A stretch of DNA of 64,000 nucleotides from Ruditapes philippinarum (taxonomy: Eukaryota), in contig NW_026862342.1 in the NCBI RefSeq assembly GCF_026571515.1, positions 1-64,000 on the forward strand, read 5' to 3'. Both the position numbers and the translations under genes were made by a program. Below, piece after piece: positions 2,118 through 46,145 of the stretch. Positions within the stretch are counted from its first letter, which is position 1, and each line of letters opens with the position of its first letter. The notes under the pieces are model-generated. The model had not been told where the DNA came from. It made no database searches and saw only the letters and a program-made list of their open reading frames with translations.

Positions 2118-2670
2118 ATAAGAATCCCTAAAGAAAGCCCCAACACGTCAAAATTGAAAATGTTGCAGACCCCGGTTGATTGAGTCTGTTCATAGACGGA
2201 ACTGTCAAGTGTAAACTACCATCCACGCCCCCTAGCATCAGCTAAAGAAGAATTCAACATTTAAACATGAAATGGCAAAATTTTGAATTTAGAAACATCC
2301 GCATATGTTTTCATATGGCTGTTATCATGAAACCTTCAATGTGACACTTCCGTGCCATTCCATGAAAAGCGGCATATGGTCCCCAAGTAATAAAAAGCGT
2401 GTGCCCTAAACGAGAAAACAACGGGCGGAACAAACTAAAATGGAATTTTGAATGGGGATCAGAGGTTATGAAGCCTGCGTATCACAGATAAGACGTCAAA
2501 AGACAAGTTAAAAAGCAGGCAACATATCCTAAGGGTGATTCAACATTATTTGAGTAGAAACATTGGAACAACCCAACTAGAAAATGCCGAAAAGTTAAAA
2601 CTAAAAATACCACAAGCACAACAATAATGTCGTGCTGAACGATCTTTAAGGATAGGAAATATAACATCTC
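2118..2670 (-). repeat. Interspersed repeat; reverse-complement copy of the 57437-58007 insertion
   Basis: Long reverse-complement match to 57440-57990; shorter fragments near 23350, 27330-27620, 48630, 52610-52870, 53645 and 59165. Confidence 0.75.
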
Positions 2671-3204
2671 TGACACACATTCAGGAATGAAACAACATTG
2701 CACAAGCTGAAATCAAGACGCTGATACGTTCTATGTGCCAACGATGCCAGGCAGTCCTTCATGCTGAAGATGATCATACCCGGTAATAATTTGGAATTTG
2801 TGATTTCTGCATTTTAACTACCATTTCACTACTTTTGGATAAACCCTCAGTGATATTTTATTTTTTCACAACAAAACGTAAATAAATACTCTTACAAAAA
2901 TATATATCTACTTTAATCCTGATTTTCGTATTTGTGTATATCTTCACTTAAATACAGGGAAAGCTTTTTTTTGCTCAGTAATAAAAATATTGGTTAAACT
3001 TACTTTATAAGCATAAATTGTACGTACTAACTTAAATTTACTTATTGAATCTGGTTGTGTTGCTTTGAAATTTTAATTGATAAAAACCATTTGTGCCATT
3101 GTAATTATCAACATAATACCCCCCTCCCCCTTATTGTTGCAGGCATAATTTTACCTTTAGGAAGAACATGGTTGTAATACATTTGAACTTACTTGAATGT
3201 AATA

Positions 3205-3370
3205 CATAGAGGATATTTAATGAATGTAAGTTTAATACTGAATTTATTGAACGAGTTAAATGAAATTATATTATGCGAGCCTCTGGCGAGCATGATATAA
3301 TTTTTTTTCAACGAGTTCAATAAATTCAGTAATGAACTTACACGAATTTAATATTCTATTTATCATATAC
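3205..3370. repeat. AT-rich palindromic element (possible Crypton-like non-autonomous repeat)
   Basis: Arms ..ACTGAATTTATTGAACGAGTT..ATATTATGC / GCATGATATAA..AACGAGTTCAATAAATTCAGT around GCGAGCCTCTGGCGAGC. The family assignment is inference. Confidence 0.5.
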
Positions 3371-3613
3371 AAAAATAAAGACCGTTTGAAGTACAGAAAA
3401 CGTTTTTCATTGATGCGCCTAAAGTGTAACGCTAACATTTTGCGCGTCTAAACGTTATGTTTGTATAACGCAAATGACGTCATGTCAAAATATATGCACA
3501 ACCATGCACTTTATTTAGGGAGTCGCAAAAACTGCACGGGTATGCGATAAATCATTTTTTCTCACTTACCAAATCCGTAAATGTTACTAAAAATAGCGGT
3601 GTTGGAAAATCTT

Positions 3614-4430
3614 TTCTTGCATATCAGACTGGCGTTTCCGTTAGTTTTACCCATGCCGGAAATGTCATCTGGCATGGGGGGTTCCAGATGAGTCGCGTGC
3701 TGTACAATGGCACGATAAAGATGACGTCATTTTACCGTTATGAATAATTTTGTAATTCATACGCTGTTGAATGAAAGTAGTTACGGTTGTAATGATATAA
3801 ATTTTCATTGAAAATAAAGATGAAGAATTAAAAATATAATGGAATACGGTAGAATATGCAAGAAAAAATATCTGACATATGTTTGCGGTTCGGATCGGAA
3901 TATCCGTCCCTCGGTCACCCGCCCATGGGCGGTAACTCGGCAAGCCTCGTTACCGCCCAATGGGCGGGTCACCTCGGGACGGATATTCCGATCCGAACCG
4001 CAAAATATGACAGATATTATTATTCTTGCATATCAGACTGGCGTTTCCGTTAGTTTTACCCATGCCGGAAATTTCATATGGCATGGGGGATGCCAGATGA
4101 GTCGCGTGCTGTACAATGGCACGCTTAGGATGACGTCATTTTACCGTTATGAATGAAGTTGTGTAATTCATACGCTGTTGTAAGAAAGAAGTTACGGTTG
4201 TAATAATATAAATTTCCATTGAAATTAAAGATAAAGAATTTAAAACATAATGGAATATGGTAGAATATGCAAGAAAAAATATCTGACATATGTTTGCGGT
4301 TCGGATCGGAATATCCGTCCATCGGTCACCCGCCCATAGGCGGTAACTCGGCAAGCCTCGTACCGCCAATGGGCGGGTCACCTCGGGACGGATATTCCGA
4401 TCCGAACCGCAAAATATGACAGATATTTTT
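3614..4430. repeat. Head-to-tail dimer of a ~409-bp unit, each ending in a ~150-bp GC-rich hairpin
   Basis: Unit starts TTCTTGCATATCAGACTGGCG at 3614 and 4023; each unit has ~65-70-bp inverted arms. Confidence 0.9.
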
Positions 4431-5777
4431 AATCTCACATGGGCTTATCTCACACTCTCTTCAAACGTATTCTTACACATGCGCGATTCACTCCTATTTT
4501 AACAAAAATGAAACGTCAAACGGTCAAAATGTATTAAAAATATGTGAGCTTATCTATTAAATTGTCCACGGAATCAAAATAGATTGGTATTAACTTTCAC
4601 ACTGCAATGAGTCCTACCCTACCTAAGTCCGCCCTTGCAATATCGGTATGTTTCTAAAAATAGTACACTTTAAAATATCGCAAAATCCTTCGTAAAATCG
4701 GATATTATGACACTTTGCCTGAAAAGCATCCATGTTTTCTGTTATGATAACGATGCTTCTTGATGACGAATCTCATTTTGATATTTTTTAATTGAATATT
4801 GGGCCAAAATAACCGAATAATTAGGAAAATCTTTGTAAACGGTAAATGCTTTTTGTCAACCATTAAAGTATGTACTGAATTCCTTATAAACACTTATATT
4901 ACGACACTTTCGACTTAAACATTGATGTGTTTTATCATGATAACCTTACTTTTAGACGAGGGATCCAATATGAATTTATTCTCATTGAACTTTTCACACA
5001 TAGAATTTTTTGAGGACGTAAAGTCAGACGCCTAAGCCCCGCCCCGCTTTTCAAAACTAGGTACGTTGTAATGCGCGTAGCAAGTAGTTTCACTGATATT
5101 TATATTTTGTTTCTTGTGTGTCCAGGTGAGTGAAGTGAGTGAGCGAGCCAAGGCTCGTTCCCAATGGAACCGATCACCCTGGGGTTGGGATTTCCCTATC
5201 CTCTATCTAACCCAATGATAGATTCTATTAATGTAACATAGTTACTGTTTGAAAATTAATGCCTCAGCTTAAATTTAAACTGGATAATGATATTCGTTCA
5301 ATTTGAATTTATTCTCTCCATAAGATAATCAGAATAGCATTTTCCCCCATTTATCATTTCCTTTTGAAAACCAGATGTTCATGTACATATATTATTATTA
5401 TATAAAAATCAAAAATATAAATTACAGAACAAATTACCATTTTTGCTTCAAGTTTATCATAATAAAATTTAAGGTTAATTATGATTGATCGGTCGTGAAA
5501 ACAATTTGCCTTATCTTGTTTGGTTCTCTGCTAATTTAAAACTTATTTATCCTTTCAGTTAATAACGCCGTGAAAAGTTACATTTATCAATTATTTTTTG
5601 TAATTGTCGATTTGGTTTTAACTGGTGGCTTGCATGTCAAAGTTATCATTGTCATAATTATTATTCAAACTAACCGAGTTGAAAGAATAAGTACACTGAT
5701 TGCTAGTTTCACTCATTGCTAGTTTAAAATAAATTTTCAAATATATGTGCTTATAGTCTTAATTCTTATTGTTTTAA

Positions 5778-8334: not shown

Positions 8335-8620
8335 TTATTCTTGTTTATTTTTTGCTTTACTGCTTTGCTTTAATTACTTTTCTATACTTATTTTACATTA
8401 CTTTGCTTTAATTTACTTTATTTTACAAAACTTTCCTTTACTGCTTTGCTTAACTTTACTTCACTTTGCTTTCCTTAACATTATTTTGCTTAACTTTACT
8501 TAATATTGCTTTACATTACTTTGCTTTTCTACTTTGCTTTACTTTACTTTGCTTTGCTTTGCTTAACTTTACTTTGCTTTACTTTGCTTTGCTTTGCTTT
8601 ACTTTACTTTACTTTATATA
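8335..8620. repeat. Degenerate pentanucleotide microsatellite (CTTTG/CTTTA)n
   Basis: Directly visible; accounts for the Leu/Phe-rich spurious ORFs. Confidence 0.9.
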
Positions 8621-10014
8621 CTTATATAACTTTCAACATTACAACAGGAGTTGTCTTATATATATACCCTGTATCCTGTATTCAATGGATCTGATCTTAA
8701 TATGAATGCTTTAATACAATATACTTGAATAGCTTATTTTGATAACACTGACATCATTTCTGAATTCAGCCATTCTAAAATTAACGCAGTTAATTTGCAA
8801 AACAAATATCGCCACTATAAAAAAGAGATAGCAGTGGGTGTACATACACGACTTCTAGTATTAATTTCTCATTTTTTGTCAAATATGATTGTGTCAAATT
8901 TTATCAATAAAACATGAACACTATTGAACTTCTGCATTCCTAACATATTCTTTGTTTTTACGTTTAGAGTGAAATTAATGTAACATCATTAATTTCGAGT
9001 TTTAACTATTTAATATAAAATAAATTCAAATGTTAAAAAAGAATCAGGATAATAACATCTTTGCTAAAGAACACAGATATTCAGATTTACAAATATTTAA
9101 GTCTTTTATGCATGTAGAATTTTAGATATGTGTTATAATTGGCGAAGTCTTGTATTTTATAAAAGAAAATGTTACAATGGAGGTAATCACATTGTATGAT
9201 GTTCATAAGTATCATAGTTTCTCCCTTTAAAAGCCATGTGATTTTTCAATTTGTTGAGTATTTTCAAGTCATATTGTTTATATTTAAAAATTGCAAGTTT
9301 ATGAAATTAAAAAACAGTTTAATTTTTAATAATGCTGTATTTAATTTGTTTCCAACAGCGTAATGGTTTGATAATGGAAAGTTATGCCAAATTTACTAAG
9401 GTGATGTGCCACAAATAAATAACAATGATTGAACTAGTAGATGTAATAACATAATATTTCGATTTCATATCTGTTAATATGCCGCGTTGAAGAAGTTCCA
9501 CCCGTCGTGGAAGTGTTAGGGAGCAGGTTGCCTAAATGATAAATCAGAATCGTGCACGAACTCAGGCTACGCATTTTCCATCTACCCAAGCAAAACAACA
9601 AGCAGCATCATAGTTGCAAAATCCTCCAATGAAACCTCCAGCAGAACTAGAACACATCGTAAATAGTTAAGAGAGGTCGTCAAGATTTACAGTGTTAAAA
9701 ATGAGTACTGGCAGCATTAATTTTTGCGTATCAAATTGAGTTTAGTAAACCTCATTTAAAGACTAAAATCATTAGAACAAGTCTAAAATAAATTGTTATG
9801 CGCACGATCCGTTTCAAAATATGACTTTAATTAAACGAAAAATTAACATTGAGGTGAATATGTCTGTAAAAGGAAAAATCATTTTACGTTACATTTAACG
9901 CTACAAACAATGATTTATTCCGTTTTTAATCCTTTTAACTGATTAAATTGATAATTGTTTTCTAAAAGCGTTTTTCTTTCATGTTTAAAATAGTAACAGT
10001 AAACACTAAAGCTG

Positions 10015-11416: not shown

Positions 11417-13006
11417 TTAATCCGAATCCTCCTTGATAGATTGCGTCCCATATCTTTTGATATGCGTATCGGCGTATTGTTGATAACTACAGTACGTGTA
11501 GTATGACGATGCAATTATTCCAATCGGAAGTGCAAGAATTAGCACACCACACACTGCGCATGTCGACGCAATAATGTGACCAAAAACGGTGCTTGGGTAA
11601 TAATCTCCATAGCCAACTGTTGTTAATGTAATCAGTGCCCAATACATCGCTACAAAAACGTTGTCGAATTTTGAGTTATGAAACATTTCTGCGATGAACA
11701 TAATGAATCCGAATATGAACATGAGTATTCCGAGCATAAACATAAGTACCTTTAATTCTTGCAAGGAAGAAAGGAACGTGTATCCCATTATGTTGAATGC
11801 TGGTATACGTTTCACGAGAAAAAACAAACGCGTCAGTTGCAGTATTGACAAATATTTAAAAGCCACGTAAGTCCGTATGCTAGTTACTGTTGTCAATGAC
11901 TCCAGATGAATTTCCATTATGAACGATATCCAAAATGACAAATATCCGAGTATTACTATAAATCGGAAATAGCTAAACATATACATGGTTTTCTTTCTTG
12001 GACAGACGAGAAATGCTACAAGGAAATCTACGGTTAAAATAAAATGGCAGCTTGCGTCTGTGTATAGTAAATATGGGTGTGGCTTGAGAGCTCCGAGTGC
12101 AGAGTCGGTGTTATTTTCGAGGCCAAGTAACTTGCCAATTTCAATGAGAATGCTCTTTTCGGATTTTGTTAGGTCGACAGTGAACATTGGTAGAGTTGCC
12201 AAGGCCTCTGTGATTGTTGACATAACAATCAGCAAAGATATAAAGCTTCCCCAAATCTGAAATCAACATCAACATACGTGTAATTTAGGAGAGGTTTAGT
12301 ATCACGGTGTGAGAAACTGAAAAATAAGAACAAGTATGGACTTTGTCTTGATTTCCATCGAAACATTATACTTCTTTCATATTAACGGGTGAAATGAATA
12401 TTTATCAACTCCAAAGTCTAATTCCCATATTTGTAACAAACCAGAAAAACTGTTAAACATTTGATTATTGATTAAATAAACTCTGTTAAGTGTCAAATAT
12501 AGGAACAAAACATTTAGATAATTACGTACCATTGCATTTACTGAAGAAGACGGCTCATCGAGAAAAAGCCATATATTTTTCCTCCATGGTGATATATCAC
12601 GTTCTTCTTCAACGAGACCTGCTTCACATCGAAGATATTTTGTTACCTTACGGATTTTAGAAACGTCATTTTCGTTACGGTACAGTGCCTCCCAGCAACA
12701 TGGCGCCACGTGACTCGGAGAAACGCCCCAATAGTCAAGTTCTTCACTGAAAGAAGCTCCACAAATATCTTTTGGTAAATGAATCGTTCCTTTTCTGCAA
12801 CCATCCAAGATACTGTTAAACATTAATGGATTTCTGTCAAAGAAATATTCATTTCTTGCCGAATCATAATTTTTCGTCTGCAAGTGAAGATTTGCTAATC
12901 TGGATTCCTTAAATGTTTTTAACGTTTTAGAGGGACATTCAAAAATAGTTCCACAAATATTGATTCGAATAATACCTTCTCTAGATAAACACACAGTCGT
13001 CGCCAT
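11417..13006 (-). CDS. Voltage-gated K+ channel alpha subunit, Shaw/Shab-like, 438 aa; exons 12530-13006 and 11417-12256
   Basis: T1/BTB domain (NEYFFDRNP; HLPKDIC..PCCW Zn motif of non-Shaker Kv), six TM segments, pore WALITLTTVGYGD. Phase-0 GT-AG intron 12257-12529; additional acceptor at 13012-13013 implies an upstream UTR exon. Confidence 0.92.
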
Positions 13007-14114
13007 TGCAACTGAATTGAAGTAATATATAAACATAAAAAAATAATTCATGTAATTTCAGTTTGTACAGCAGAACTTAGCATCAAGCTGATGACGAGAT
13101 ACATTGGTGGATAAGAAACGAAATAGTGCCTGTAATACCTTCTCTTTTATAGTCTGATATTTTCATAAGCGTCAAAGTACTGTTATAAGTTATGCAAAGT
13201 AACACATTGCATAACAGTATATTTTGATAGGCAGTGGTGCCCTTTAAATGAGCTTTTAACGATGATGTCAAAAGTCATTTACATATATATTCTATAATTG
13301 TGTGCAAATCTCCTGAATATTATACACGAGCAAACATAAAATGACCACTTGTCCATATCCCTGATAAATATTTGCAATTTAGATAGCAGACTGTCTGACT
13401 TTCTTATCATATGGTAAATTATATCTCTCATATGAAGTCCCATCCTTGTTCCTGTCCTCGTTTACAATTCTGAGCAGACAAAAACAAAGCTCAAACAGTC
13501 CACTAGAATCATATTATTTGTTCTTTTTAACTGACAACTTCAATACAGAATCTATGTAAAATGTTATGCAGTTATAAAATTCATTTTCAAACACGGTCCA
13601 CCAAGCTCGCTGTACTTTGTAGACGCCTGAATTTCATGTCATTTTCTTTTTAACTGATTTCAGTCCTTACCATGCTCGAGCAGAATTGTTTTCCTTTTCT
13701 GTACAGTCTAACCAGGCTCTATACTGATGGCAGCACACTTTTTGTATTTATAAAACATGTATGCAGAAAACATGTCGTAAGATGTAAGTACTTGAATATA
13801 TGGATGATGATGATCACAGAACAATTGCGAACTATTTTTTCCACATTGATGAAGCAACATCAATGAATTTGCCATATTTCTGTTTATTATATTAATATTT
13901 ATCTTTAACCCTTACCCTGCTGGCCGTAACTGATTCTACCTATGCGACCACTGCAGCTAAAGACTACCCGGCACATCATAGTCTGTGATGTTCGCTATTC
14001 AGTAAGTATATGTTTTGAAAGTTGGTGTTGTATTTCTATGAATATAGCCTGTACTATATTTGGTGTTTGTTATAGTCAAAATATAATTGTATGCATATAG
14101 CTAGACCCTTTTCG

Positions 14115-14542
14115 CTAGATTTTTCGCAATTCGTTTATTTTCTGAATTCATTAAATCAATAAATTTTTGCATATTTGAGCGATTAACATAACAATTTGGT
14201 ATAGAAGGTTTCCTTAAATCCTCAAATCACTGTAAAAAGTACATTCCAGAACAAAATGATATTCATCTTCTAACTTGTCACAAAAAATACATTTCCTTTC
14301 ATTTATAGGTGTATTTTTATGTCTTGTTCACCTACCTGTTTCAATAAAAAAGCCTTTGCGAGCAATCTCGCATGCGAGACATACATACATGCAATTTTCT
14401 TACACTTAAAAAATTAAAGTATGGTTGAAATCTATGGTTTGATATATACCTGTTAGAGATTGTTCTGCTAAAGTCATTTAATCTACCAGACCAATTTTGT
14501 AAAAACTGATCTTTAAGTCTTTGCTTAACATTTATTAAGAAC
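14115..14542 (-). pseudogene. Decayed LINE (RTE-X-like) 3' part, left of the transposon insertion
   Basis: KQRLKDQFLQNWSGRLND.SR..; C.KLEDEYHFVLECTFYSDLR; contiguous with 20367-20860 in the uninterrupted paralog at 45235-46145. Confidence 0.75.
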
Positions 14543-14589
14543 AATTGACATTACGCCACCTGTCAATCAAACTGACCAAGCCTTCGCCG

Positions 14590-14741
14590 ATAAGCCAATC
14601 AGCGATCGATATCTGTTCACACTCCCGGAACGCTTCGGTTCCATCCAACCTCCGCCATTTTACTTAGACAAGCTACTTGTCTAGGATAACTAGCAACGGA
14701 TTAAATTCTATAGAAAATATATTGATTTCTGGTAAATAAAT
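14590..14741 (+). promoter_or_regulatory. Putative transposase promoter
   Basis: AGCCAATCAG CCAAT box (core 14595-14599) and a YY1-like CCGCCATTTT (14652-14661) between the TIR and the ATG. Confidence 0.4.
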
Positions 14742-17700
14742 ATGGTGAAACGCTGCCAATTGGGTACATGTAATTCGGACAGCAGATATCCCGACAGACT
14801 GAAGGATGGAATTTATTTTATTCCATTTCCTAAGCCAAAAAGGAATTTAGAGAAGTGTCGTCGGTGGATCAAATCGTGCGGTCGTCCACACGATCAGTTA
14901 AATATCCAAAAAGTTGACGGAAACTATCAACTTTACGTATGTTCTAAGGTAAAATTTAGTTATATCTTACCCATTTTATACAAGTCTACAATGATAATCT
15001 GGTTTTAAGAAATCGATACTCGTCAAAGCCTGATTAAACTACTTTACGTTTATCATATTTGTATCTGGACATTGTAGAAACGTTTTGCTGACATTTATGT
15101 GCGTTTTCCATTCGTTTTGATTATAGTCAGACCAAATAAATTACAAAATATCATGCTATCACGGTAGATTTGTAGGTTAAATTCAAGGCTATATATAGCA
15201 TCAGAACGTAAACATTACAAACTGACAAATCAGAAAGCATCAAAAGCACATGTTCTTAGTAAACAAATCCATATATGGAAAACGGTAAACATGAGCAATT
15301 CTTTGACCTTGACATATCTGTCTGAATGGAGAACCGCTGTCAGGTGCAATGACATGTATTCAGGTACAAAACTAGAATTTCATAAACTTATGACAGATTC
15401 TATATGTATTATGACATTATGTCCAATACATTAAATAGTATTTTCATCAATTTTGCTACACAATATGGGCCACTAATGATTATCATTCTACATTTAATGA
15501 ACATTTTTGTATTTGTTGTGTTTATGTTAGAACCTCAATCATTGTAAACAGTTAATCATTTAAATATAAGGGCCGGCTAACTGTGATTAGTTGGTGATTA
15601 TCTCATGGGATCATTGATGTAACATGTTGAGAATTGAGTACTGCTCGAGCCGGTGCTAGGGGGCTTGATGTTGCATTTATTCATTATCAAAACAGGTCTG
15701 CAATTTTCATGTAATTTTGTTGTGATAACCCTTCCAAGGAATCACTTTGTTTCCAGATTTATGTACTAGAAGGTTGATTTGAGAAAAGCGGGTTAAATTA
15801 TATTGCAGTTTTAATGCAATAAATATCATAATTTCAGCATTTTCCAGAAGGGAAGCCGACGGAGAGTTTCCCAGATCCAGTGCAGGCCAGTTTTTCGGAA
15901 AGACTACTCAAGGTGACTCCTGTAAGACGACCACCGAAACGCCGCCCAGAATCAGAACCTCCAGTATCAAGGAAAAAGAGAAATATACTTTTAGAAATAT
16001 TTTCCAGGTATTTATTTTGCATCAATGCATATTTAAAACAAATAAATTATAAAAAAGATGTATTCACATGAAGTAAAACTGTTAAACATAAATGAAAATA
16101 GTAACATCTTGATAATGCAGTAGTATTTAAAGTAAATTCCTGAGCATAAAATCTGAAGTATACATGTACGTAAATTCAATTTTGCTCTCAAAGTTCTAAG
16201 TGTTTTTGCATTTCACTTTTCATTATAGTGTCAACAATGAGAATATCAATGAACAGCACATAGATAACTCTTCACAGTCAACAAATGAATTTTGTGCTGA
16301 TGTTTCTGTACAAACCGACTTTCATCAAGGTAATTAATTGTTTTCACTTACAGTACAAATTTACAGTAAACACAGCACAGTTTTGAAAGTAATGCTTCCA
16401 TACTCTCCTTGTCCGCCTTAACTCTTATTACGCAAAAATCACACTTTGTGTAAGTCACAAAGTCACACCACTTTGCTCCTGACACAAGCAACTGGCCTTG
16501 AACTTGCCACCAGTAGTTATGGCCCTTTTTCAACTGAACATTGCCATTTATTTCATGTAGGTGAAAATCTCTTTTCTCAAAAACATCTCTTTCCATTGCC
16601 TCTCTTAATTTTAAGTCTCTACACCAGAAAGGACACTTTATTTCTAACAGGCCTGACTGACCATTGCAGCAGACTTTACCATCTGGTGTAGCAGCTATAC
16701 ATGGGAAGAGTGGATTCACCATTAATCCACAGTCATGCACATGGTTTCCTGTCATTTTCATATATTGCATTGAAGCTACTGACTCTTTTGATAACCCATA
16801 CTCTGTTGGACTAGATTTAAATGGTTTACTATTCAAAATACTGTCGACACACTTTTTATTTACATCACTCTTTCTGTTCATAATTTTCCCAAAATTAGAG
16901 GCTGTTAGCCTCTGTTTTCTCTCTTTTTTCCAAAGTTCACTTCCTGATTGTTCTTTGGTATTTAATTCTATATAAACAGCTTCCTGTTTTGAAACTTTAA
17001 CATTCTCAAAATGACTCTGATAGTCTCTTACAATGTCCAAATTTCCAATGTCAGGGGTGGTGGGAAACTCCCAATCAGTGGCACAGGGAGAGCTTGCTCC
17101 TGAGGGCTCTTCTACTGGCATTATCAGGGGAAGCTTAAATGAAAAGAAAACAAAATACAACAGCTGACAATATTTATGCAAATTCGATATGACCATAACA
17201 AAACAATTTAAATGTTTGTAGTTTTAAAGCTGCATGCCTCAAGATGAGCCAAAATATTTAAAGACAATCAATATTGAGAAAAATGCACTTAAGTTTTAAG
17301 ACAGAAAATACATTCAAGATCCAAGTTATATTTTACATGTTATGTGCGTTTAATGACTGATTTTGTAGTATTTAATCACCATATGTCTACAGCATTACTA
17401 ACGCAGTTATGGGTGTTTTAGCATATCTTGACAACTATTTGTTATTTTTTGTGGATTGTAAGTGCTGATTGCAATATGTGAATTACTTTATTTGTTCAAC
17501 TCACAATATTTTACATTTAAATACATTACCAAAATTTTCAAATCTGGCGCCGTGCTGCTTTAAATTTTATGCTATATGTGCTTGTATACACCTTAATGTA
17601 AGATTGTGATATAATGTAATTGCAGGTGTGTCCCCAATTGATCTGCTTACCCTTGCAGCAGAGAATCATGGGTTAAAATCTGAAGTTGACCTTCTGCAAC

Positions 17701-18773
17701 AACAGATATCAACTTTACAGAATCAAGTTGCAGACAAAATTCTGAGAAATGAGGAGTTGTCGCGTGAGAATGAAATATTACGGCAGGAAAATGGAAAGTT
17801 AAAGAAAAGACGTTTTCTGTGAGATATGTTCAACAGTCCAAAATAAAGAACAATTTTAAGTACTATACAGGATTTGTGTACACACAGTTTTTGTGTATCC
17901 TTAACTTTCTTATGCCAAAAAGGGGATTAAATGAGCTGCCATTTAAATTAAAAAAAAACTATATCTAAGGCTTTGAAAATGAAGGCTGAAGACCAGCTGC
18001 TTCTTGTTCTAATGAAACTGAGGCTAAACCTACAGTTTCATCATCTTGGAAATTTATTTAACCTATCACCGCAGGATACTGGTGCGATTTTCCGAGAGTG
18101 GATAAATTACATGTATTATCGGTTTGGTTCGGTTCCACTTTGGCCATCTCGTTCCTCAATAATTGACATGATGCCGAAAACATTCCGAGAAGATTTCCCT
18201 ACAACAATGATAATTCTAGATGGAACAGAAATTAAACTTGAAAAACCTTCCTCACTCCGCTCTCAGAGTCAGTGTTACAGTGACTATAAGTCATGTACTA
18301 CCTTAAAGGGGCTTGTTGGTGTCGATCCTAGGGGCTCATTTACATTTATTTCCATGTTATTTACAGGGGGGACATCAGATAATGAAATTACAGCACGAAG
18401 TGGACTAATGGACATGTTAAAACAGTTGTTAGATTGTGGCAGACTACAGAGAGGGGATGCTGTTATGGTTGACAAGGGATTTCTGATAAGGGAAGACATC
18501 GAAAAACTTGGACTCGAACTGATAATTCCACCTTTCGCTTCATCAACAGAACAAATGCCCCCATCAGATGTTGCACTTACTCAAAAAATTGCTAAACATA
18601 GAATTCATGTTGAAAGAGCTATTTCAAGAGTGAAGAAATTTAAAATTGTTGATCATAGACTGGATCTTACTCTGTACCCATCTATAAACCAAATATGGTT
18701 TTGCTGTTGTTTTTTAACAGGATTCATGCCTTTACTAATTAAAGACCAGGACAATAAATTGTTAATTACCTGA
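14742..18773 (+). CDS. THAP-domain Harbinger/DDE_Tnp_4-like transposase; exons 14742-14948, 15838-16007, 16229-16329, 17626-18773
   Basis: THAP C2CH completed across intron 1 (VCSK|HF). All junctions GT-AG with matching phases 0, 2, 1. Coiled coil, KYYTG, HTH (EDQLLLVLMKLRLNL), catalytic LDGTE / MVDKGF / RIHVERAI. Two compensating 1-nt indels in A runs (~17805, 17950-17958). Confidence 0.9.
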
Positions 18774-20281
18774 TGAGATAGTGTACTACTGATGTGCTGT
18801 GACCCATGAGTTGTATTTGTTGTACCAAAGGGTTTGCTAGCCAAATAGCCTAAAGGAGTGTTATCCATTGACTGAAGGAGCTCTATGTCACTGTCAAGCA
18901 CTTGTATTTTTCTGTAATGATAAATGCAAAATAGTAGCAATGAGAAATTAACTTAGAAACATTCAATACAATATGTTTATTTTAAGAAACTGGACTTAAT
19001 TATTAGTATGTATTAACATATTTGTAGCTTATTTATTCATTACACAAAGTCAATAATCAAAAATTTAATAAATACTAAATGAATGTAATTTTATACATGT
19101 TGTGTTTCTATCAGTATTTATCATATATTTATGAATAAAGCTTATTGCTTAATATAACCATTTGTTGAATGTGGGGACTGACTGTCATATGAGTAAACAT
19201 GACAGTAACACTAGAACAGCTGAACTCATGCCCCAAGGGTGGTGGTGAGGAAGACACCATAACCACTATGCCATTTTCCCCCCTTAAAAACATACCTATT
19301 GTCAATAAATGTTGGAACTAGAGGCCGTCTCTTTCTACCCGTTATACCCGACCTTGACATAGTCACAGTGGTTCAGGACAAATCCTTACACCACGTGGCC
19401 TATCCCATAGTTGAGGTTGACTGGTACAGGCAGGCCGGCTTGGAATGTCAATCAAACCTTCAGTTAACCAGTCGGTCAGTTTTAAAACAACTGCTAAAAC
19501 ATGGGAACATTCCCCAGACATACTGAAATTCATAAAAACATAAGTAATAATGAGTCATTACCTATTAATAAGTAGTATTTTACATTTAATAACTAATTGT
19601 TTATTAAAATTGAAAACGCTGTGATCCGATGCAAGGAAGACCTTTCATAATCCCTACTGTATAAACTGACACATTTTTTATTTACTCTCCTTGGATATAT
19701 GACCCATAGGCTATATAAATGTTCACATCAAGGCTACCAGCATGTTCCTGGCGTTAAAAACTGAAAATGTGTGTGTCGTTTAATTATATAATATAGGTTT
19801 ATTCTGCGCAAAATTATAATCTACTCGGTAGATTTTTATGTTATTTCCGGTATGCGACAGTAAACATGAACTGTGAAAAATTTCCCTAAAAATCATGGAA
19901 ACATCCAAAACATATCGAATGAATCATTATAGAAATAGTGGATTGCATTGACAATAAACTTAATTTATAGTAAAGTATTTTACATTTTTAATGACTTCGT
20001 AAAAATTAAGTTTAATTACCCTGCTTTACATGAACAATGAGCGTCAGAGATGGATTTTTTCCCTACCGCCATGTTGATTGTATGCGGTTTCTCAGATTTT
20101 CTTTGTGAACGGAAAACTGAGGATTTCACATCAATAACCCCATCTCTTCCATGGAAAACCTTTACAGATGCAACATAACTCTCGTTTGCAAACTTTCTGC
20201 TCTGAATTCGTTGCCGAAGCGTTTATATAAGAGAAAATGCTCTCCAAAATCACAAGGTAAATCTCGTAAGCGAGCAGCCAT
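16348..20281 (-). CDS. SWIM-finger plus YqaJ/lambda-exonuclease-like protein; exons 20020-20281, 19296-19522, 18770-18911, 16348-17133
   Basis: SWIM HCSCKAG|MSGECSH split by intron 1; CTSQPQLWDRPRG; YqaJ motifs QS..W..ER..RLTASNFG, ATPDG, LEIKCP, YWWQVQGQL..CDFV. GT-AG junctions with phases 2, 2, 0. Small frameshifts in exons 1 and 2; the start codon is tentative. Confidence 0.87.
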
Positions 20282-20350
20282 ATTGCGAAAGTTGTCTAAG
20301 GTTTAGAAAGACGATACCACGTGACTTAGTGGGCGGAGCGATCCTATCGT
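20282..20350 (-). promoter_or_regulatory. Putative YqaJ-gene promoter
   Basis: E-box CACGTG (20318-20323) and GC box GGGCGG (20331-20336) between the ATG and the right TIR. Confidence 0.35.
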
Positions 20351-20366
20351 TGGCGTAATGTCAATT

Positions 20367-20860
20367 AAGGATCACCAATACTTTGGAAAAGCCAAACTTC
20401 ATTAAAATCAAGAATACAAAATAAATCTCTTAACAATGAGCACCGATTTTTTCTGGAAGGATTATCTGTGATATCTTGTTTAAGAAATAAATATATATTT
20501 TTCTACTATATTTGTTTTCATCTGATTGTAACAACTTGATCCAGAAGTGTATTATAATATAATATCGCATATTTTACAGAGGCAATCTTCCCAACTTCCC
20601 ATAAATAAAACCATTCTGTGTATTCTTTTTAACTCCCAATATACGTTTACAGAAATTCATATGAATACGTTCCACAGATTTGCCTTGATAAATGTAATGT
20701 GAAAACAAGCAAGTAAATTTCTACGTCTTTAAAAACAGATTATACATTACCTGTGTTAACGATCTGTCAGAAGCTTTTAGAATATAACGTTATACAAATT
20801 GTACATCAGCTCATTAACTTTGCTTTTTAGACAAGACATTCATTTATCGCTATTTTGACG
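20367..20860 (-). pseudogene. Decayed LINE, portion right of the transposon insertion
   Basis: IYGKLGRLPL-like motif; matches 45667-46145. Confidence 0.7.
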
Positions 20861-22506: not shown

Positions 22507-22950
22507 TTATTCTGACTGTTCACCTCTATAAATAGCAATATTCTTTTCAGTTTCATGCACTTTGACCTCATATAAAAGTCCAGGTGTAAGTTGATCAGCC
22601 ATTCTCTCCCAAATATACACTGCAATATTCTCTGCTGTGCTAATTTTATCTTTAAAATAGTCCACGTCTAAATCCAAATTTTTATGATCAAGTGTTGACA
22701 TAAACGCTTCTTCCATGTAAGCTTTAAGATCGGTAAGATTGAGCACCATTCCGGTCACAGGGTCAACCAGGACCACGTAACAGTCACCTCGACTTTGTAA
22801 TTGTGACCGTGGTCCTTTAGGGTTATTACATTTACCAAATATAATTTGGTTATCTTCATCTGAAAGATTATTGTTATTCAGTCGATGACATGCGCTGAAA
22901 CAATCACTACGGGAGATATAGACGATCGGTTGCTTTTTTACAGGAAACAT
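22507..22950 (-). pseudogene. PTS: 6-pyruvoyl tetrahydropterin synthase copy 1, frame-scrambled across the Zn-binding GHGHNY motif
   Basis: Paralog of 47830-48270. Three +1 insertions between ~22768 and 22813 keep the ORF open but replace [15 protein letters not shown] with [16 protein letters not shown]; may be an assembly error. Confidence 0.8.
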
Positions 22951-23944
22951 TATTTCTCTGGTTTAAAATCTGAAAACATATAATAGAAATGGTTTAAAAT
23001 CTGAAAACAATTATTTCTCTGGTTTAAAATCTGAAAACATATAATAGAAAAAAAAGTATCATCCAAGTATCTTTTAGTATTTGTGGGATTGCGATAGTGT
23101 ATTACATGCATACAATTTACTTGTCATCTCACAAAAAATGTGAAGAACAGATTCGAATTCTAGCCCTTTAATGACGTCATGGTACATTGCCGATACAAGA
23201 TAGTTATTCTTACTACTTTTACTCGTGTTAGATGCCCGAAATTTTGTTAAATTGAATAAGTACACATGAATAATATGTTTAACATAATACTCATACGTCA
23301 GTTTCAATGCTAGATCAATGTCACCTCTAAAGAATTAAACATGTCTCATTGTGTCACAGGCTTAATCAAACCGAGCCTGCAACATTTTCAATTTTGCAGT
23401 GTTGGCTTTCTTTATGGATTCTTATTTTCTCTATTTTACCACGCATATACAAATCGTATGTTTTGCTAACCACATAACGATATCTATCTTGTGTTTCAAA
23501 AACTATCACTGTTCCGGAAGGTCGAAAACGGCACCATCATTGTCTTCATATAAGTATGAAAAATTTTTGGGTTTGGGAAATTTTTTTACTCTTATTAACT
23601 TTTTAAAAATGTAAAAAACAAAAATATAAGAAATTTTTATTTAAATTTTATTTAAAACATTGTCAAGCTTACAATGTTAAAACAATAAAAACGATTATAT
23701 AGATATTTGTAGTACTTTTTAGAAAAGTAATTTAATAAATGTAATAATTCTTAGTAATGTATACTTATTGTGTCGAAGAAAACAAATAATTCGGTCAGTC
23801 TTGGATAAATTTCTCATAAAAATGATATACTAAGTTATTTTAATGCACAACACACTATATAATACGTATAAAACAAAAATCATGTAGTGATTATTTTGAA
23901 CTTAAAATTAATTTTAGTAATTTATATTTTGCTTATAAAACATA

Positions 23945-24375
23945 AGTGTGCTGTCTTCGTCGTGTCGCGTAGCATGTTGCCTTCTTTCGGTTGCGTAGCA
24001 TGTTGCCTTCGTCGTGTCGCGTAGTGTGTTGTCTTCATCCTGAGTCATAGTGTGTTGTCTTTGTCGTGTCGTGCAGCGTGTTCACTTCGTCGTGTCGCGA
24101 AGTATGTTGTCTTCTTCGGGTCATGTAGTGTGTTGCCTTCGTAGTGTTGTGTAGTGTGTTACCTTCGTCGCGTCGCGTAGTGTGTTATCTTCGTAGTGTC
24201 GCTTAGTGTGTTGTCTTCGTCGTGTCAGAAAGTGTGTTGTCTTTATTTTGCCGAGAAAAGAGTGTTGTCCTCATCTTGTTTCATAGCATTTTGTCTTCGT
24301 CTTGTCGCTTAGTGTGTTGTCTTCGTCATGCCGCATAGCGTGTTGTTTTCATCTTGTCGCTTAGCGCTTTTTCTT
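23945..24375. repeat. ~26-bp minisatellite (GTCTTCGTCGTGTCGCGTAGTGTGTT)n, about 16 units
   Basis: Directly visible; paralog at 49530-50085; inverted relative at 42190-42352. Confidence 0.9.
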
Positions 24376-27300
24376 GCATATCAGACAGAATTATTGGAGA
24401 GGTCATCAGACATCATTTGAAGTTAATAAATGTCATTTAAAGCCTAAAATCATTAGAATCGGTATATGAAAACGGTGGCTCAATTGAATCTATCCATCAG
24501 AGAGCATAAATTCACTATATATCAAATTTCGGGATTAATAATTCCATTTCTGGAAAGGGAAAAACTGAAACAGGAACATACCGTAAGTAAATATTGACTT
24601 GGCGTCTATTTCTATTATTCTGTATTTTATTAATTAGTTGCTTATTAAGGTAATTATTTGAACTGTAATGTATCAAAATTGAACAGCGTACACACGTACT
24701 TCAATCAGTTAAAACTTACGTACTTTTTTATCAATTCATGAAATGATCGTGAACACGCAGAGTCGCATTTCTGGAAAATACTTTTACGAATCTTTGAAAT
24801 GTTTGAAATGTTGGTAAGTGGCAAGGGGTTCCGAATCTAAACTTGAATGAGAACCATAATAAGACAGGAAACAAAAAAAACTGATCCGGGCGTGCTTCGA
24901 AACATAATAGCGAGGTGACCTGCTGGTACTGATTTCCGGTTTGCTCCAAAAATAACTGGACAGTAAACAAAATAAACCTTTAATGAAGAGCAGACAAAGT
25001 TGTCACCTAAAATTTTGATGTACTTCCGGCAAATGTTTTCAAAACCATCACTTTTGAAGGTACTCGAGTTTACCGTAATGCTCGCTGTTATATGTGTGGA
25101 TATGTTTCCTATCTCATTATGGTTCCCATTCAAATTGAATATACATGTATTAAAAAAACTTAGATTAAAATAGCTTAATAATAATAACAATAATAAAAAT
25201 TATGCCAATGATAATAATTACTATCTTTATTTAAAGGTGACACATGAAGATATACCATCGTTAAGAACAAATAACATATATTAACTGAAAATCTACATAA
25301 CACACACAAATACACACGCACACACGCACAAATCACCAAACAATAATAACTATTCCCCATTGCGTCAATAATTATTTGGTCCTGTAACAAACATAATTTT
25401 ATTTTTTTTGACAACGCACCTTTAAGATATTACATATCATTCATACTTTTTCAATTAAGAAATACTTTAACAAATATACAAGTACATGCATAATAAATAT
25501 TATAACATAGTAACACAATGACAGGGTTATAAATATATTTATTTGATCTGCAAGAAAGGCTTTTTAACAAGATGTCAGAAAATTAGTGAAACGGACTTTA
25601 AATGGTATTCTACTCCAAATCTTTGCACCGTTGTTACAAAAAGTACATGTATTTTACCATAGTTTGTGCGGTGTTTTTAGTATCACAATGACATGCTGAT
25701 TTTATATTGTTACTTTTATATTATAGCATAATGATATCTACAGATAAAGGCGTCCGCCATTTAGTACCCATCATTACAAACGAAAGACAATGAGAATCCA
25801 ATAATTCAGTATCGCTCGATTGGTAAATTTGTTGGTGATATCAAATAAGGTTATTACACTATTATTTACTATTTTATGTTCAATATCAAAATGCAATCAT
25901 TTGATCAACCTTATGCCAAACTGAAACATATAAAATAAAATATATTTCAGCCTAAAAAATCTGAAAATTATTTTAATGCATAATTATATAATAATTTTCG
26001 AATTTCACCGATTAAATTTACTTACTCAAAGTATCCTTTATATTTCAGATATACTCATTGCAACACATTTCTCTATTGATTTGAAATGTATTTATGTGAG
26101 TTTATCGTATATATGCATCGCAATAATGAAGTGCCTGCTTACCAAACCGTGGAAATACTGGTTGGGTTGATTGAGCTTGACTATAATATGAGTAGAAATT
26201 TATTCTGTCTTTTCACCAACCATTTTATTTATATCGATATTCTTTTTAAAGGAGCCCCGCTAAGGTCAAAACGTCTAAAATCATAAACTTTTAAATTCTA
26301 ACAAAGATCAAGTGAACCACTTTTAAATGGAAAAATCTGCAAAGTAAAATAAACAAAAATACTCAGAATGAAATTCAAAAATCATCAGTAAGTGCAATTA
26401 ACAGCCTGATTTGAGTGAAAAACGTTCATGTTGGTCTCATTTTGCACAAGAAAAAATATATGAATAAAAATGCACGGGAATGATTTGTTAATTTGTTGTC
26501 AATTTAATGATTCAAACCTATAAGAAATGGTTCAATCTTGGACAAATAGTTCAAGTCCCATTGTGTCAAAAACAACTCAGTGGTCATCTGGCATATCTAG
26601 TTTGAATGTCACATTGTAGGACGAAACGAAGCTTGAAATGAATCGAACATTTAACATAAAACACAAAAAATATTTTTGAAAGCTCGTGCATAAAATCTTA
26701 TATGCTTTTATATGCTCTGAATCGAAAATGTTCATAATATTAATTACTATGAAATAAGTGAAAAGAAACGTATACATTTACATAATTGCACTTATTATCT
26801 AACAAACGGAGAATTAAATAACTACTCTAAGAAATGATATTTTATTTTATTCTTACATTTTACATGTATTACTAAGTGATATGTTCAGAAACTACAGGGT
26901 ATCGTTGGGCCCATCTTTTAGTCGTGCCACCGACTTAAATTAACAAAAACACGCCCCCCCCCCCCAGAAACACTACACTGGGGCGATTTAGGGATACACG
27001 GAAGCGACAAAACCATAAACAGAAGCGACGAATGGTACTAAAACACAGAATTATTAACTGAGTAGGCATGGCGGCATCAAATGAGTTTGAATACGCATGT
27101 TCATGAGGAAACAGAATTGCGATATAAAACAAAAGCGGCAAGACAACACGCCGAAACTAAGACACGATACACCAAGGCGACAAGACAGCTCGAGAAAACG
27201 ATGACACGACGAAACAATACCCCAAAAGAAGCGACGATACTCGAGCCGCAGATACGCTGAAACGACAGGGTATTTAAGTGATGTCACGGCGGGACGGTAA

Positions 27301-45234: not shown

Positions 45235-46145
45235 AGATTTTTCGCAATTCGTTTATTTTCTGAATTCATTAAATCAATAAATTTTTGCATATTTGAGCGA
45301 TTAACATAATAATTTGGTATAGAAAGTTTCCTTAAATCCTCAAATCACTGTAAAAAGTACATTCCAGAACAAAATGATATTCATCTTCTAACTTGTCACA
45401 AAAATACATTTCCTTTCATTTATATGTGTATTTTTAGGTCTTGTTCACCGACCTGTTTCAATAAAAAGCCTATGCGAGCAAACTCGCAGGCGAGACATAC
45501 ATACACGCAATTTTCGTACACTTAAAAAATTAAAGTATGGTTGAAATCTATGGTTTGATATATACCTGCAAGAGAGAGATTGCTCTGCTAAAGTCATTTA
45601 ATCTACCAGACCAATTTGGTAAAAACTGATCTTTAAGTCTTTGCTTAACATTTATAAAGAACAATTTAGGATCACCATTACTTTGGAAAAGCCAAACTTC
45701 ATTAAAACCACGTATACATAATAAATCTCTTAACAATAAGCACCGATTTTTTCTGGAAGGATTATCTGTGATATCTAGTTTAAGAAATAATTTATATTTT
45801 TCTACTATACTTGTTTTCATCTGATTGTAACAACTTGATCCAGAAATATAATATCGCATATTTTACAAAGGCAATCTTCCCAACTTCCCATAAATAAAAC
45901 CATTCTGTATATTCTTTTTAACTCCCAATATACATTTACAGAAATTCATATGAATTCGTTCCACAGATTTGCCTTGATAAATGTAATGTGAAAACAAGCA
46001 AGTAAATTTCTACGTCTTTAAAAACAGATTATCCATTGCCTGTGTTAACGATCTGCCAGAAGCTTTTAGAATATAACGTCATACAAATTGCATATCAGCT
46101 CATTATCTTTGCTTTTTAGGCAAAACATTCATTTATCGCTATTTT
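45235..46145 (-). pseudogene. Uninterrupted decayed LINE (RTE-X-like) containing the empty transposon site
   Basis: ORF 45548-45859 (LLRDLL..GFNEVWLFQ..KLFFINVKQRLKDQF..NWSGRL) reads through the site. Confidence 0.75.

What the first reader, a model, noticed from the sequence alone, without database searches (positions are those of the whole stretch)
18765..18773. Transposase stop codon and antisense splice donor share the same bases
Plus-strand ATT ACC TGA (last codons and stop) reads TCAG|GTAAT on the minus strand, which is the YqaJ exon-3 donor. At the other end, the YqaJ stop (16348-16350) lies only 18 nt past the transposase exon-3 donor. Such tight packing at both ends suggests a selected arrangement rather than a chance nested insertion (inference).
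Basis: partly seen in the sequence, partly recalled or inferred. Interest (0 to 1): 0.7.

Follow-up and report, generated by a model that had tools for sequence, protein, structure and literature searches.

The report
Jumping gene with two interlocked genes
The shared bases are real but are likely a coincidence of sequence; what relatives do share is that the two opposite-strand genes of this ISL2EU-type jumping gene each carry the other's last coding exon inside an intron, a layout that likely arose once by a swap of their two end blocks.

Summary
Observation confirmed: the transposase stop (18771-18773) lies on the last bases of YqaJ exon 3, and RNA-like contigs join 18770 to 17133 in 3 of 4 runs. 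The overlap occurs in 1 of 9 related lineages; elsewhere the donor lies 14 to about 510 nt past the stop, and the 18-nt gap is 6, 96 and 189 nt in three others. Any T-CAG|GT donor reads TGA on the other strand, and this family's transposase tail runs about 6-8 codons further than its relatives' until it meets that TGA. The conserved feature is larger: a 5.8-kb ISL2EU-type element whose two genes are interleaved. Such elements form one transposase clade nested among ordinary tail-to-tail elements, whose nearest members lack both host introns. A single block swap of the two 3' halves would create both introns and all three tight junctions. The window copy itself is frameshifted in both genes. 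I found no description of this layout in the paper library; Repbase could not be checked.

The parts
14546..20363 (.). Whole ISL2EU-type element, 5818 bp if the duplication is AT (5816 bp if AATT), inserted in an older ~580-bp repeat
   Evidence: Ends from the paralogous copy C4107 and empty sites; empty-site joint skips 5820 bases
14543..14558 (+). Left target bases and terminal inverted repeat (16-nt perfect arm including AATT)
   Evidence: 175 exact matches in the genome against 1 for the control
20351..20366 (-). Right terminal inverted repeat and target bases
14742..14948 (+). Transposase exon 1, THAP domain
   Evidence: PF05485 E 1.5e-5; 72% to P0001 residues 1-69, donor AAG|GT
15838..16007 (+). 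Transposase exon 2
   Evidence: splice sites; joint to exon 3 in 3 of 4 runs
16229..16329 (+). Transposase exon 3; its phase-1 donor opens the intron that holds the YqaJ last exon
   Evidence: joint 16329/17626 in 3 of 4 runs
16348..17133 (-). YqaJ exon 4 (nuclease domain, stop at 16348-16350), inside transposase intron 3
   Evidence: PF09588 E 2.6e-16; phage exonuclease 3syy E 1.6e-8; joint 17133/18770
17134..17625 (.). Central spacer with the two splice acceptors back to back; holds a TTAA-flanked 332-bp repeat (17228-17559)
   Evidence: spacer is about 31-130 nt in six relatives
17626..18773 (+). Transposase exon 4 (coiled coil, HTH, DDE; stop 18771-18773), inside YqaJ intron 3; two frameshifts in this copy (near 17811 and 17950)
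   Evidence: PF13359 E 7e-41, PF13613 E 9e-15; indels against RNA-like contigs and copy C8160
18765..18773 (.). The finding: last two transposase codons and stop on the antisense of the YqaJ exon-3 donor
18770..18911 (-). YqaJ exon 3, ending at the phase-0 donor after ...STLSHQ
   Evidence: joints 18911/19296 in 4 of 4 and 17133/18770 in 3 of 4 runs
19296..19522 (-). YqaJ exon 2; 7 nt missing in this copy near 19369
20020..20281 (-). YqaJ exon 1 (start codon inferred at 20281); 4 nt missing in this copy near 20220
19067..19072 (+). Candidate transposase polyadenylation signal (inferred); the 3' UTR would cover YqaJ exon 3 antisense
   Evidence: AATAAA; contigs run on to 18913-19074, depth 0 at 19092-19295 in 3 of 4 runs; strand not shown
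16011..16016 (-). Candidate YqaJ polyadenylation signal (inferred); the 3' UTR would cover transposase exon 3 antisense
   Evidence: AATAAA on minus; run X2 contigs 16003-16256 and 16227-17133 at depth 35-54 against 8-12 over transposase exons; strand not shown

Best explanation
This is a broken copy of an ISL2EU-type transposon whose transposase and YqaJ nuclease genes are interleaved on opposite strands, and the stop/donor overlap is likely a by-product of that layout, which likely arose once when the 3' blocks of two tail-to-tail genes swapped places. Shown: both genes are spliced across each other's last coding exon; the layout marks one transposase clade nested among tail-to-tail elements; the nearest tail-to-tail relatives have no intron at either place. 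Inferred: the ancestor read T5'-T3' > < Y3'-Y5'; swapping the adjacent blocks gives T5' | <Y3' | T3'> | Y5', which puts the transposase donor next to the YqaJ stop, the two acceptors back to back, and the transposase stop next to the YqaJ donor. The most likely route is a tandem duplication of the central segment, use of splice sites across the two copies, and deletion of the outer redundant halves (untested, about even odds). In the window's family the unconserved transposase tail then likely lengthened by 6-8 codons until it reached the TGA that the antisense of His-Gln|GT always supplies.
For: Splicing. Overlap in 2 of 18 loci, 1 of 9 lineages; antisense TGA at all 13 T-CAG donors, in frame in 6. 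Donor lies 21-33 nt after the conserved ...LI of the transposase in five lineages while the stop floats (counted); only the window family has the long tail. In L071 the donor's TGA is also in frame, five codons after the real stop. Layout: of 75 transposase places with a YqaJ match within 6 kb, 56 tail-to-tail, 18 with YqaJ upstream on the opposite strand, 1 same strand. Interleaved rows are one side of a branch, SH-aLRT 100 (19 rows) and 98 (11 rows), nested among tail-to-tail lineages when distant YqaJ-less transposases are included. Nearest tail-to-tail relatives L049/L057, L050, L056, L059/L069 read through the G-S-x-L-S/A-Y/H-Q motif without an intron, and L049, L050, L059 start their last transposase exon at the same phase-2 acceptor as interleaved exon 3 and run on to the stop. 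Central acceptor spacer about 31-130 nt in six relatives. A ~975-bp duplication of the central piece exists in copy L043.
Against: A right-hand gap of 30 nt or less persists in 5 of 9 lineages down to about 57-60% transposase identity, which mild selection could also give. No intermediate of the swap was found; L043 is a later duplication in an already interleaved copy. YqaJ trees give weak support: the tail-to-tail row L056 fell inside the interleaved group, and without the four database proteins the group was one side of a branch with support 14. Trees were quick searches; the outgroup rows have long branches. L071, L078 and L053 were labelled interleaved by hand from partial loci. The runs are RNA by guess, and the raw-read runs were too thin to list any splice joint. 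Duplication-loss cannot be told from a one-step block move.
Confidence: 0.72

Rival explanations
1. Closeness of the junctions, though not the exact overlap, is selected: short gaps force each 3' UTR to run antisense over the other gene's exon 3, coupling or damping expression of the two genes by collision or double-stranded RNA.
For: Right gap 30 nt or less in 5 of 9 lineages; left gap 18 and 6 nt in the two closest families; contigs run past each stop over the other gene's exon 3 and AATAAA signals lie beyond them.
Against: The family with most full-length copies seen here (10 loci, family of L033) has gaps of 189 and about 500 nt, with AATAAA inside the right gap. Four of the five tight lineages are one sub-clade. 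A 15-nt gap is a small target for insertions, so it stays short without selection (inference). Strand of the contigs is not shown.
Confidence: 0.2
2. The exact stop/donor overlap and the 18-nt spacing are a selected dual-use signal.
For: Both are real and identical in the second copy C4107.
Against: Absent from 8 of 9 lineages, including three at 67-70% identity; the TGA is an automatic antisense reading of the donor; the residues involved are an unconserved tail.
Confidence: 0.05
3. One unrelated element inserted by chance into an intron of another.
For: Two other repeats did insert into introns of this copy.
Against: Both genes lie between one pair of inverted repeats; neither gene is wholly inside the other; the same layout recurs in three families here and in metagenome contigs.
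Confidence: 0.02

Closest known systems
ISL2EU (IS4EU) group of the PHIS superfamily (PMC4482050, PMC4122938; passages and Table S2 rows seen)
   Same: THAP-HTH-DDE transposase plus a second gene with a YqaJ exonuclease domain; short inverted repeats; AATT target; length 5.8 kb against a reported mean of about 4.8 kb.
   Different: Genes interleaved instead of tail-to-tail (56 of 75 paired places here are tail-to-tail). This family's ends begin TG (or GA), not the usual GG; the sister interleaved family of L033 has AT plus GG. The passages read say nothing of strand, introns or overlap (terms overlap, orientation, intron, opposite: 0 hits in PMC4482050).
KolobokE (PMC9587614, passages seen)
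   Same: DDE transposon with a lambda-exonuclease-like nuclease.
   Different: [quoted passage not shown]
PIF/Harbinger
   Same: DDE_Tnp_4 transposase, two genes.
   Different: Second gene is Myb/SANT and the duplication TWA (PMC4482050); neither applies.
Intron gain by tandem genomic duplication (recalled; the term appears in the listing, no paper read)
   Same: A duplicated stretch supplies a donor in one copy and an acceptor in the other.
   Different: Here it would have happened on both strands at once, each new intron keeping the other gene's working 3' half.

Membership tests
ISL2EU | Transposase with THAP, HTH and DDE domains | tested here: met
   PF05485, PF13613, PF13359 above cut-off
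ISL2EU | Second gene with a YqaJ exonuclease domain | tested here: met
   PF09588 E 2.6e-16, spliced
ISL2EU | Target site AATT | tested here: met
   Empty paralogous site has one AATT, filled site AATT on both sides; 175 ends preceded by AATT against 6 with another first base
ISL2EU | Duplication of exactly 2 bp (AT) | tested here: inconclusive
   Empty-site joint of 5820 bases fits AT plus 5818 or AATT plus 5816; the sister family of L033 shows AT with varying outer bases in five copies
ISL2EU | Inverted repeats of 6-259 bp | tested here: met
   12-13 bp inside the target bases
ISL2EU | Ends 'usually' begin GG (a tendency in PMC4482050, not a strict criterion) | tested here: not met
   Window family and family of L031 begin TGAC; family of L033 in the same clade begins GGAC
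ISL2EU | Groups with reference ISL2EU transposases in a tree | not testable with these tools
   No Repbase sequences on hand; trees hold only loci and proteins fetched here
KolobokE | [quoted passage not shown] | tested here: not met
   Separate antisense gene, AATT flanks
PIF/Harbinger | Myb/SANT second gene; TWA duplication | tested here: not met
   Second gene is YqaJ; flanks AATT
Simple nested gene | One gene wholly inside an intron of the other | tested here: not met
   Each gene has three exons outside the other and one inside

The most novel reading that the evidence does not exclude
An undescribed, old clade of animal DNA transposons locked its two genes together in one event that created two introns at once, one on each strand; the interlock persists because neither gene can be deleted or moved without cutting the other and because each message's 3' UTR is antisense to the other's exon 3, giving a built-in way to balance transposase against nuclease.
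Probability: 0.25. Interest if true: 0.7.

Novelty: new variant of a known kind. Interest (0 to 1): 0.42.

Why it matters
The nine-base overlap itself matters little. The interleaved clade matters more: it is a traceable case of two introns gained together on opposite strands, with the intron-free ancestral state still present in the same genome, and it is a layout that gene and repeat annotation will tend to misread (a second gene hidden across a transposase intron). It also offers a natural comparison (tight against long gaps, interleaved against tail-to-tail) for testing how the transposase and the YqaJ nuclease, whose role PMC4482050 calls unknown, are co-regulated.

Tried and rejected
Exact conservation of the overlap and of 18 nt: rejected. 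No listed holder of the stretch is on record as RNA; the three raw-read RNA runs gave depth of a few reads or less over the exons, equal on both mates, and no splice joint among the 15 joints shown (38 not shown), so strand could not be read. Left gap of L073 and L075 could not be resolved (no clear exon 3; frameshifted YqaJ end). L076 and L077 too short or broken to classify; L042, sister to the clade, showed no YqaJ match; L078 showed none in 5 kb upstream. C12229 counts among the 18 upstream cases but is probably the neighbour copy of a tandem tail-to-tail element (two copies about 6 kb apart; not fetched). AT against AATT duplication not resolved. AG|G at both ends of the new introns, the mark expected of duplication, is present at the window's transposase intron and the YqaJ intron of L031 but not throughout, and is close to the ordinary consensus: not used as evidence. 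Paper searches without a description of the layout: ISL2EU+YqaJ (3 papers), ISL2EU+exonuclease (7), interleaved genes+transposon+opposite strand+intron (1 listed, not read), IS4EU (3), PIF-like+MADF+nested+intron (0), DNA transposon+two genes+nested+antisense intron (0), ISL2EU+overlapping genes (2, not read). Figures of the papers and Repbase entries were not visible and may show the layout. Earlier scan notes: none by place, sequence or the word 'interleaved'. No fold or complex prediction was run; it does not bear on the claim.

Full report
Observation. Window 18765-18773 reads ATT ACC TGA and the minus strand CAT CAG|GTAATT, with the last exon base at 18770; the YqaJ stop at 16348-16350 lies 18 nt after the transposase donor at 16329. 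In contigs of four runs guessed to be RNA, from four studies, the joint 17133/18770 (CT..AC) appears in 3 of 4, 16329/17626 (GT..AG) in 3 of 4, 16007/16229 in 3 of 4 and 18911/19296 in 4 of 4. The donor is therefore used. A second lay of three raw-read RNA runs and one deep contig run that covers the introns listed none of these joints among 15 shown (38 not shown); the raw reads were too thin and unstranded.

The element. The plus strand encodes THAP, HTH_Tnp_4 and DDE_Tnp_4 in four exons, the minus strand a YqaJ protein in four exons. Both lie between inverted repeats at 14546 and 20363, flanked by AATT on both sides and inserted in an older repeat with empty paralogues; the empty-site joint skips 5820 bases. 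This matches ISL2EU as described in PMC4482050 (passages and Table S2 rows seen), except that the ends begin TG rather than the usual GG. The window copy is dead: against RNA-like contigs and other genomic copies it lacks about 25, 7 and 4 nt in coding exons and has one extra base near 17950. Whatever shaped the overlap acted on the parent family.

Is the overlap conserved? No. I measured the last base of YqaJ exon 3 against the first base of the transposase stop in 18 loci of 9 lineages: -1 (window, C4107), +19 (L031), +14 (L071), +15 (L075), +29 (L073), +149 (L078), +330 (L074), +383 (L072), +495 to +514 (nine copies of the L033 family). The left gap is 18, 6 (L053), 96 (L072) and 189 (L033); it could not be resolved in L073 and L075. 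The exon ends in a conserved Tyr/His-Gln/His motif; whenever it is T-CAG|GT (13 of 18 loci) the other strand reads TGA. That TGA is in the transposase frame in 6 of 13 and is the stop only in the window's family. In five lineages the donor sits 21-33 nt after the conserved end of the transposase while the stop floats, and only the window's protein has the long tail. L071 has the same in-frame TGA five codons after its real stop. The simplest reading is read-through of an unconstrained tail to the next in-frame stop.

What is conserved. Crossing 121 of the 145 transposase matches (second fragments at one place dropped) with 115 of the 140 YqaJ matches (likewise) gave 75 pairs within 6 kb: 56 tail-to-tail, 18 with the YqaJ nuclease exon upstream on the opposite strand (one probably a tandem artefact), 1 same strand; 46 had no partner. 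The upstream cases comprise three families with full exon order T1-T2-T3, Y4, T4, Y3-Y2-Y1. Of 8 metagenome loci, 4 show the nuclease exon upstream, 2 more show YqaJ exon 3 downstream of the stop, 2 are uninformative. Interleaved rows form one side of a branch in transposase trees (SH-aLRT 100; 98), nested among tail-to-tail lineages; five named database proteins from bivalves, a chiton and a hemichordate fall inside, layout unseen. YqaJ trees are compatible but weak.

How it likely arose. The nearest tail-to-tail relatives read through the YqaJ motif without an intron (L049/L057, L050, L056, L059/L069), and L049, L050 and L059 begin their last transposase exon at the same phase-2 acceptor as interleaved exon 3 and run to the stop unbroken. 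Some more distant tail-to-tail rows (L055, L058) have closed frames near the start of the nuclease region, which I did not map. Both host introns are thus new in the clade relative to its nearest relatives. Swapping the adjacent blocks T3' and Y3' of a tail-to-tail element yields exactly the observed order and the three junctions. Tandem duplication of the central segment, splicing across the copies and loss of the outer redundant halves is the stepwise route I favour (inference; intron gain by duplication is recalled, not read); a later duplication of this piece exists in L043, but no true intermediate was found.

Possible function. Contigs continue past each stop over the other gene's exon 3, and AATAAA signals lie at 19067 (plus) and 16016-16011 (minus), so the mature RNAs probably overlap antisense at both ends in tight families; strand is not shown. 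The long-gap L033 family, with the most full-length copies seen here, has AATAAA inside its right gap, so such overlap is unlikely to be required. Tight packing also occurs without interleaving: stops 1 nt apart in 2 of 19 tail-to-tail loci, one family.

Novelty and verdict. ISL2EU is known; earlier scan notes in other genomes describe tail-to-tail members (unchecked notes). The searches and passages of PMC4482050, PMC9179366, PMC4122938, PMC9587614 and PMC3673617 showed no account of the interleaved layout; figures and Repbase were not visible. The finding as stated is real but incidental; the interleaved clade is a new variant of a known kind. Interest 0.42.

Noticed in passing
window 14300-14546 and 20362-20700; second copy 45417-45989: A ~580-bp repeat into which the element inserted; uninterrupted copies serve as empty sites.
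   Followed up: partly
window 17228-17559: High-copy 332-bp repeat flanked by TTAA with short inverted ends, in the shared central intron; a deletion form lacking most of it exists in copy C8160 and in run X16. Kolobok-like by recall only.
   Followed up: partly
window about 15625-15760: Part of another very high-copy repeat inside transposase intron 1 (depth peak).
   Followed up: no
G000, 175 places: The element's end motif is far more common than its genes; paired ends 1.5-3.2 kb apart on C2412, C2688, C2800, C6985 suggest non-autonomous derivatives.
   Followed up: no
L046 (C4107): 97-98% identical copy with an internal deletion of about 1.76 kb that removes both acceptors and most of the DDE exon.
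   Followed up: partly
L043 (C13109), 2619-3591 and 4201-5157 in transposase orientation: Internal ~975-bp direct duplication of the central piece of an interleaved copy.
   Followed up: partly
L059 and L069: Tail-to-tail family whose two stop codons are 1 nt apart, showing tight packing without interleaving.
   Followed up: no
window 11417-13057, minus: Voltage-gated potassium channel-like gene: BTB_2 and Ion_trans matches in two open frames.
   Followed up: partly
window 22507-22962, minus: Open frame matching 6-pyruvoyl tetrahydropterin synthase (PF01242, E 6e-25) without apparent introns; possibly a processed copy.
   Followed up: partly
window 23918-24387 and 8346-8633: A 26-bp tandem array and a degenerate 5/10-bp array.
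   Followed up: no
P0010: Database protein named as a fish syntaxin-binding protein isoform whose C-terminal half is the best YqaJ match (43%): likely a gene model fused with an ISL2EU gene.
   Followed up: no
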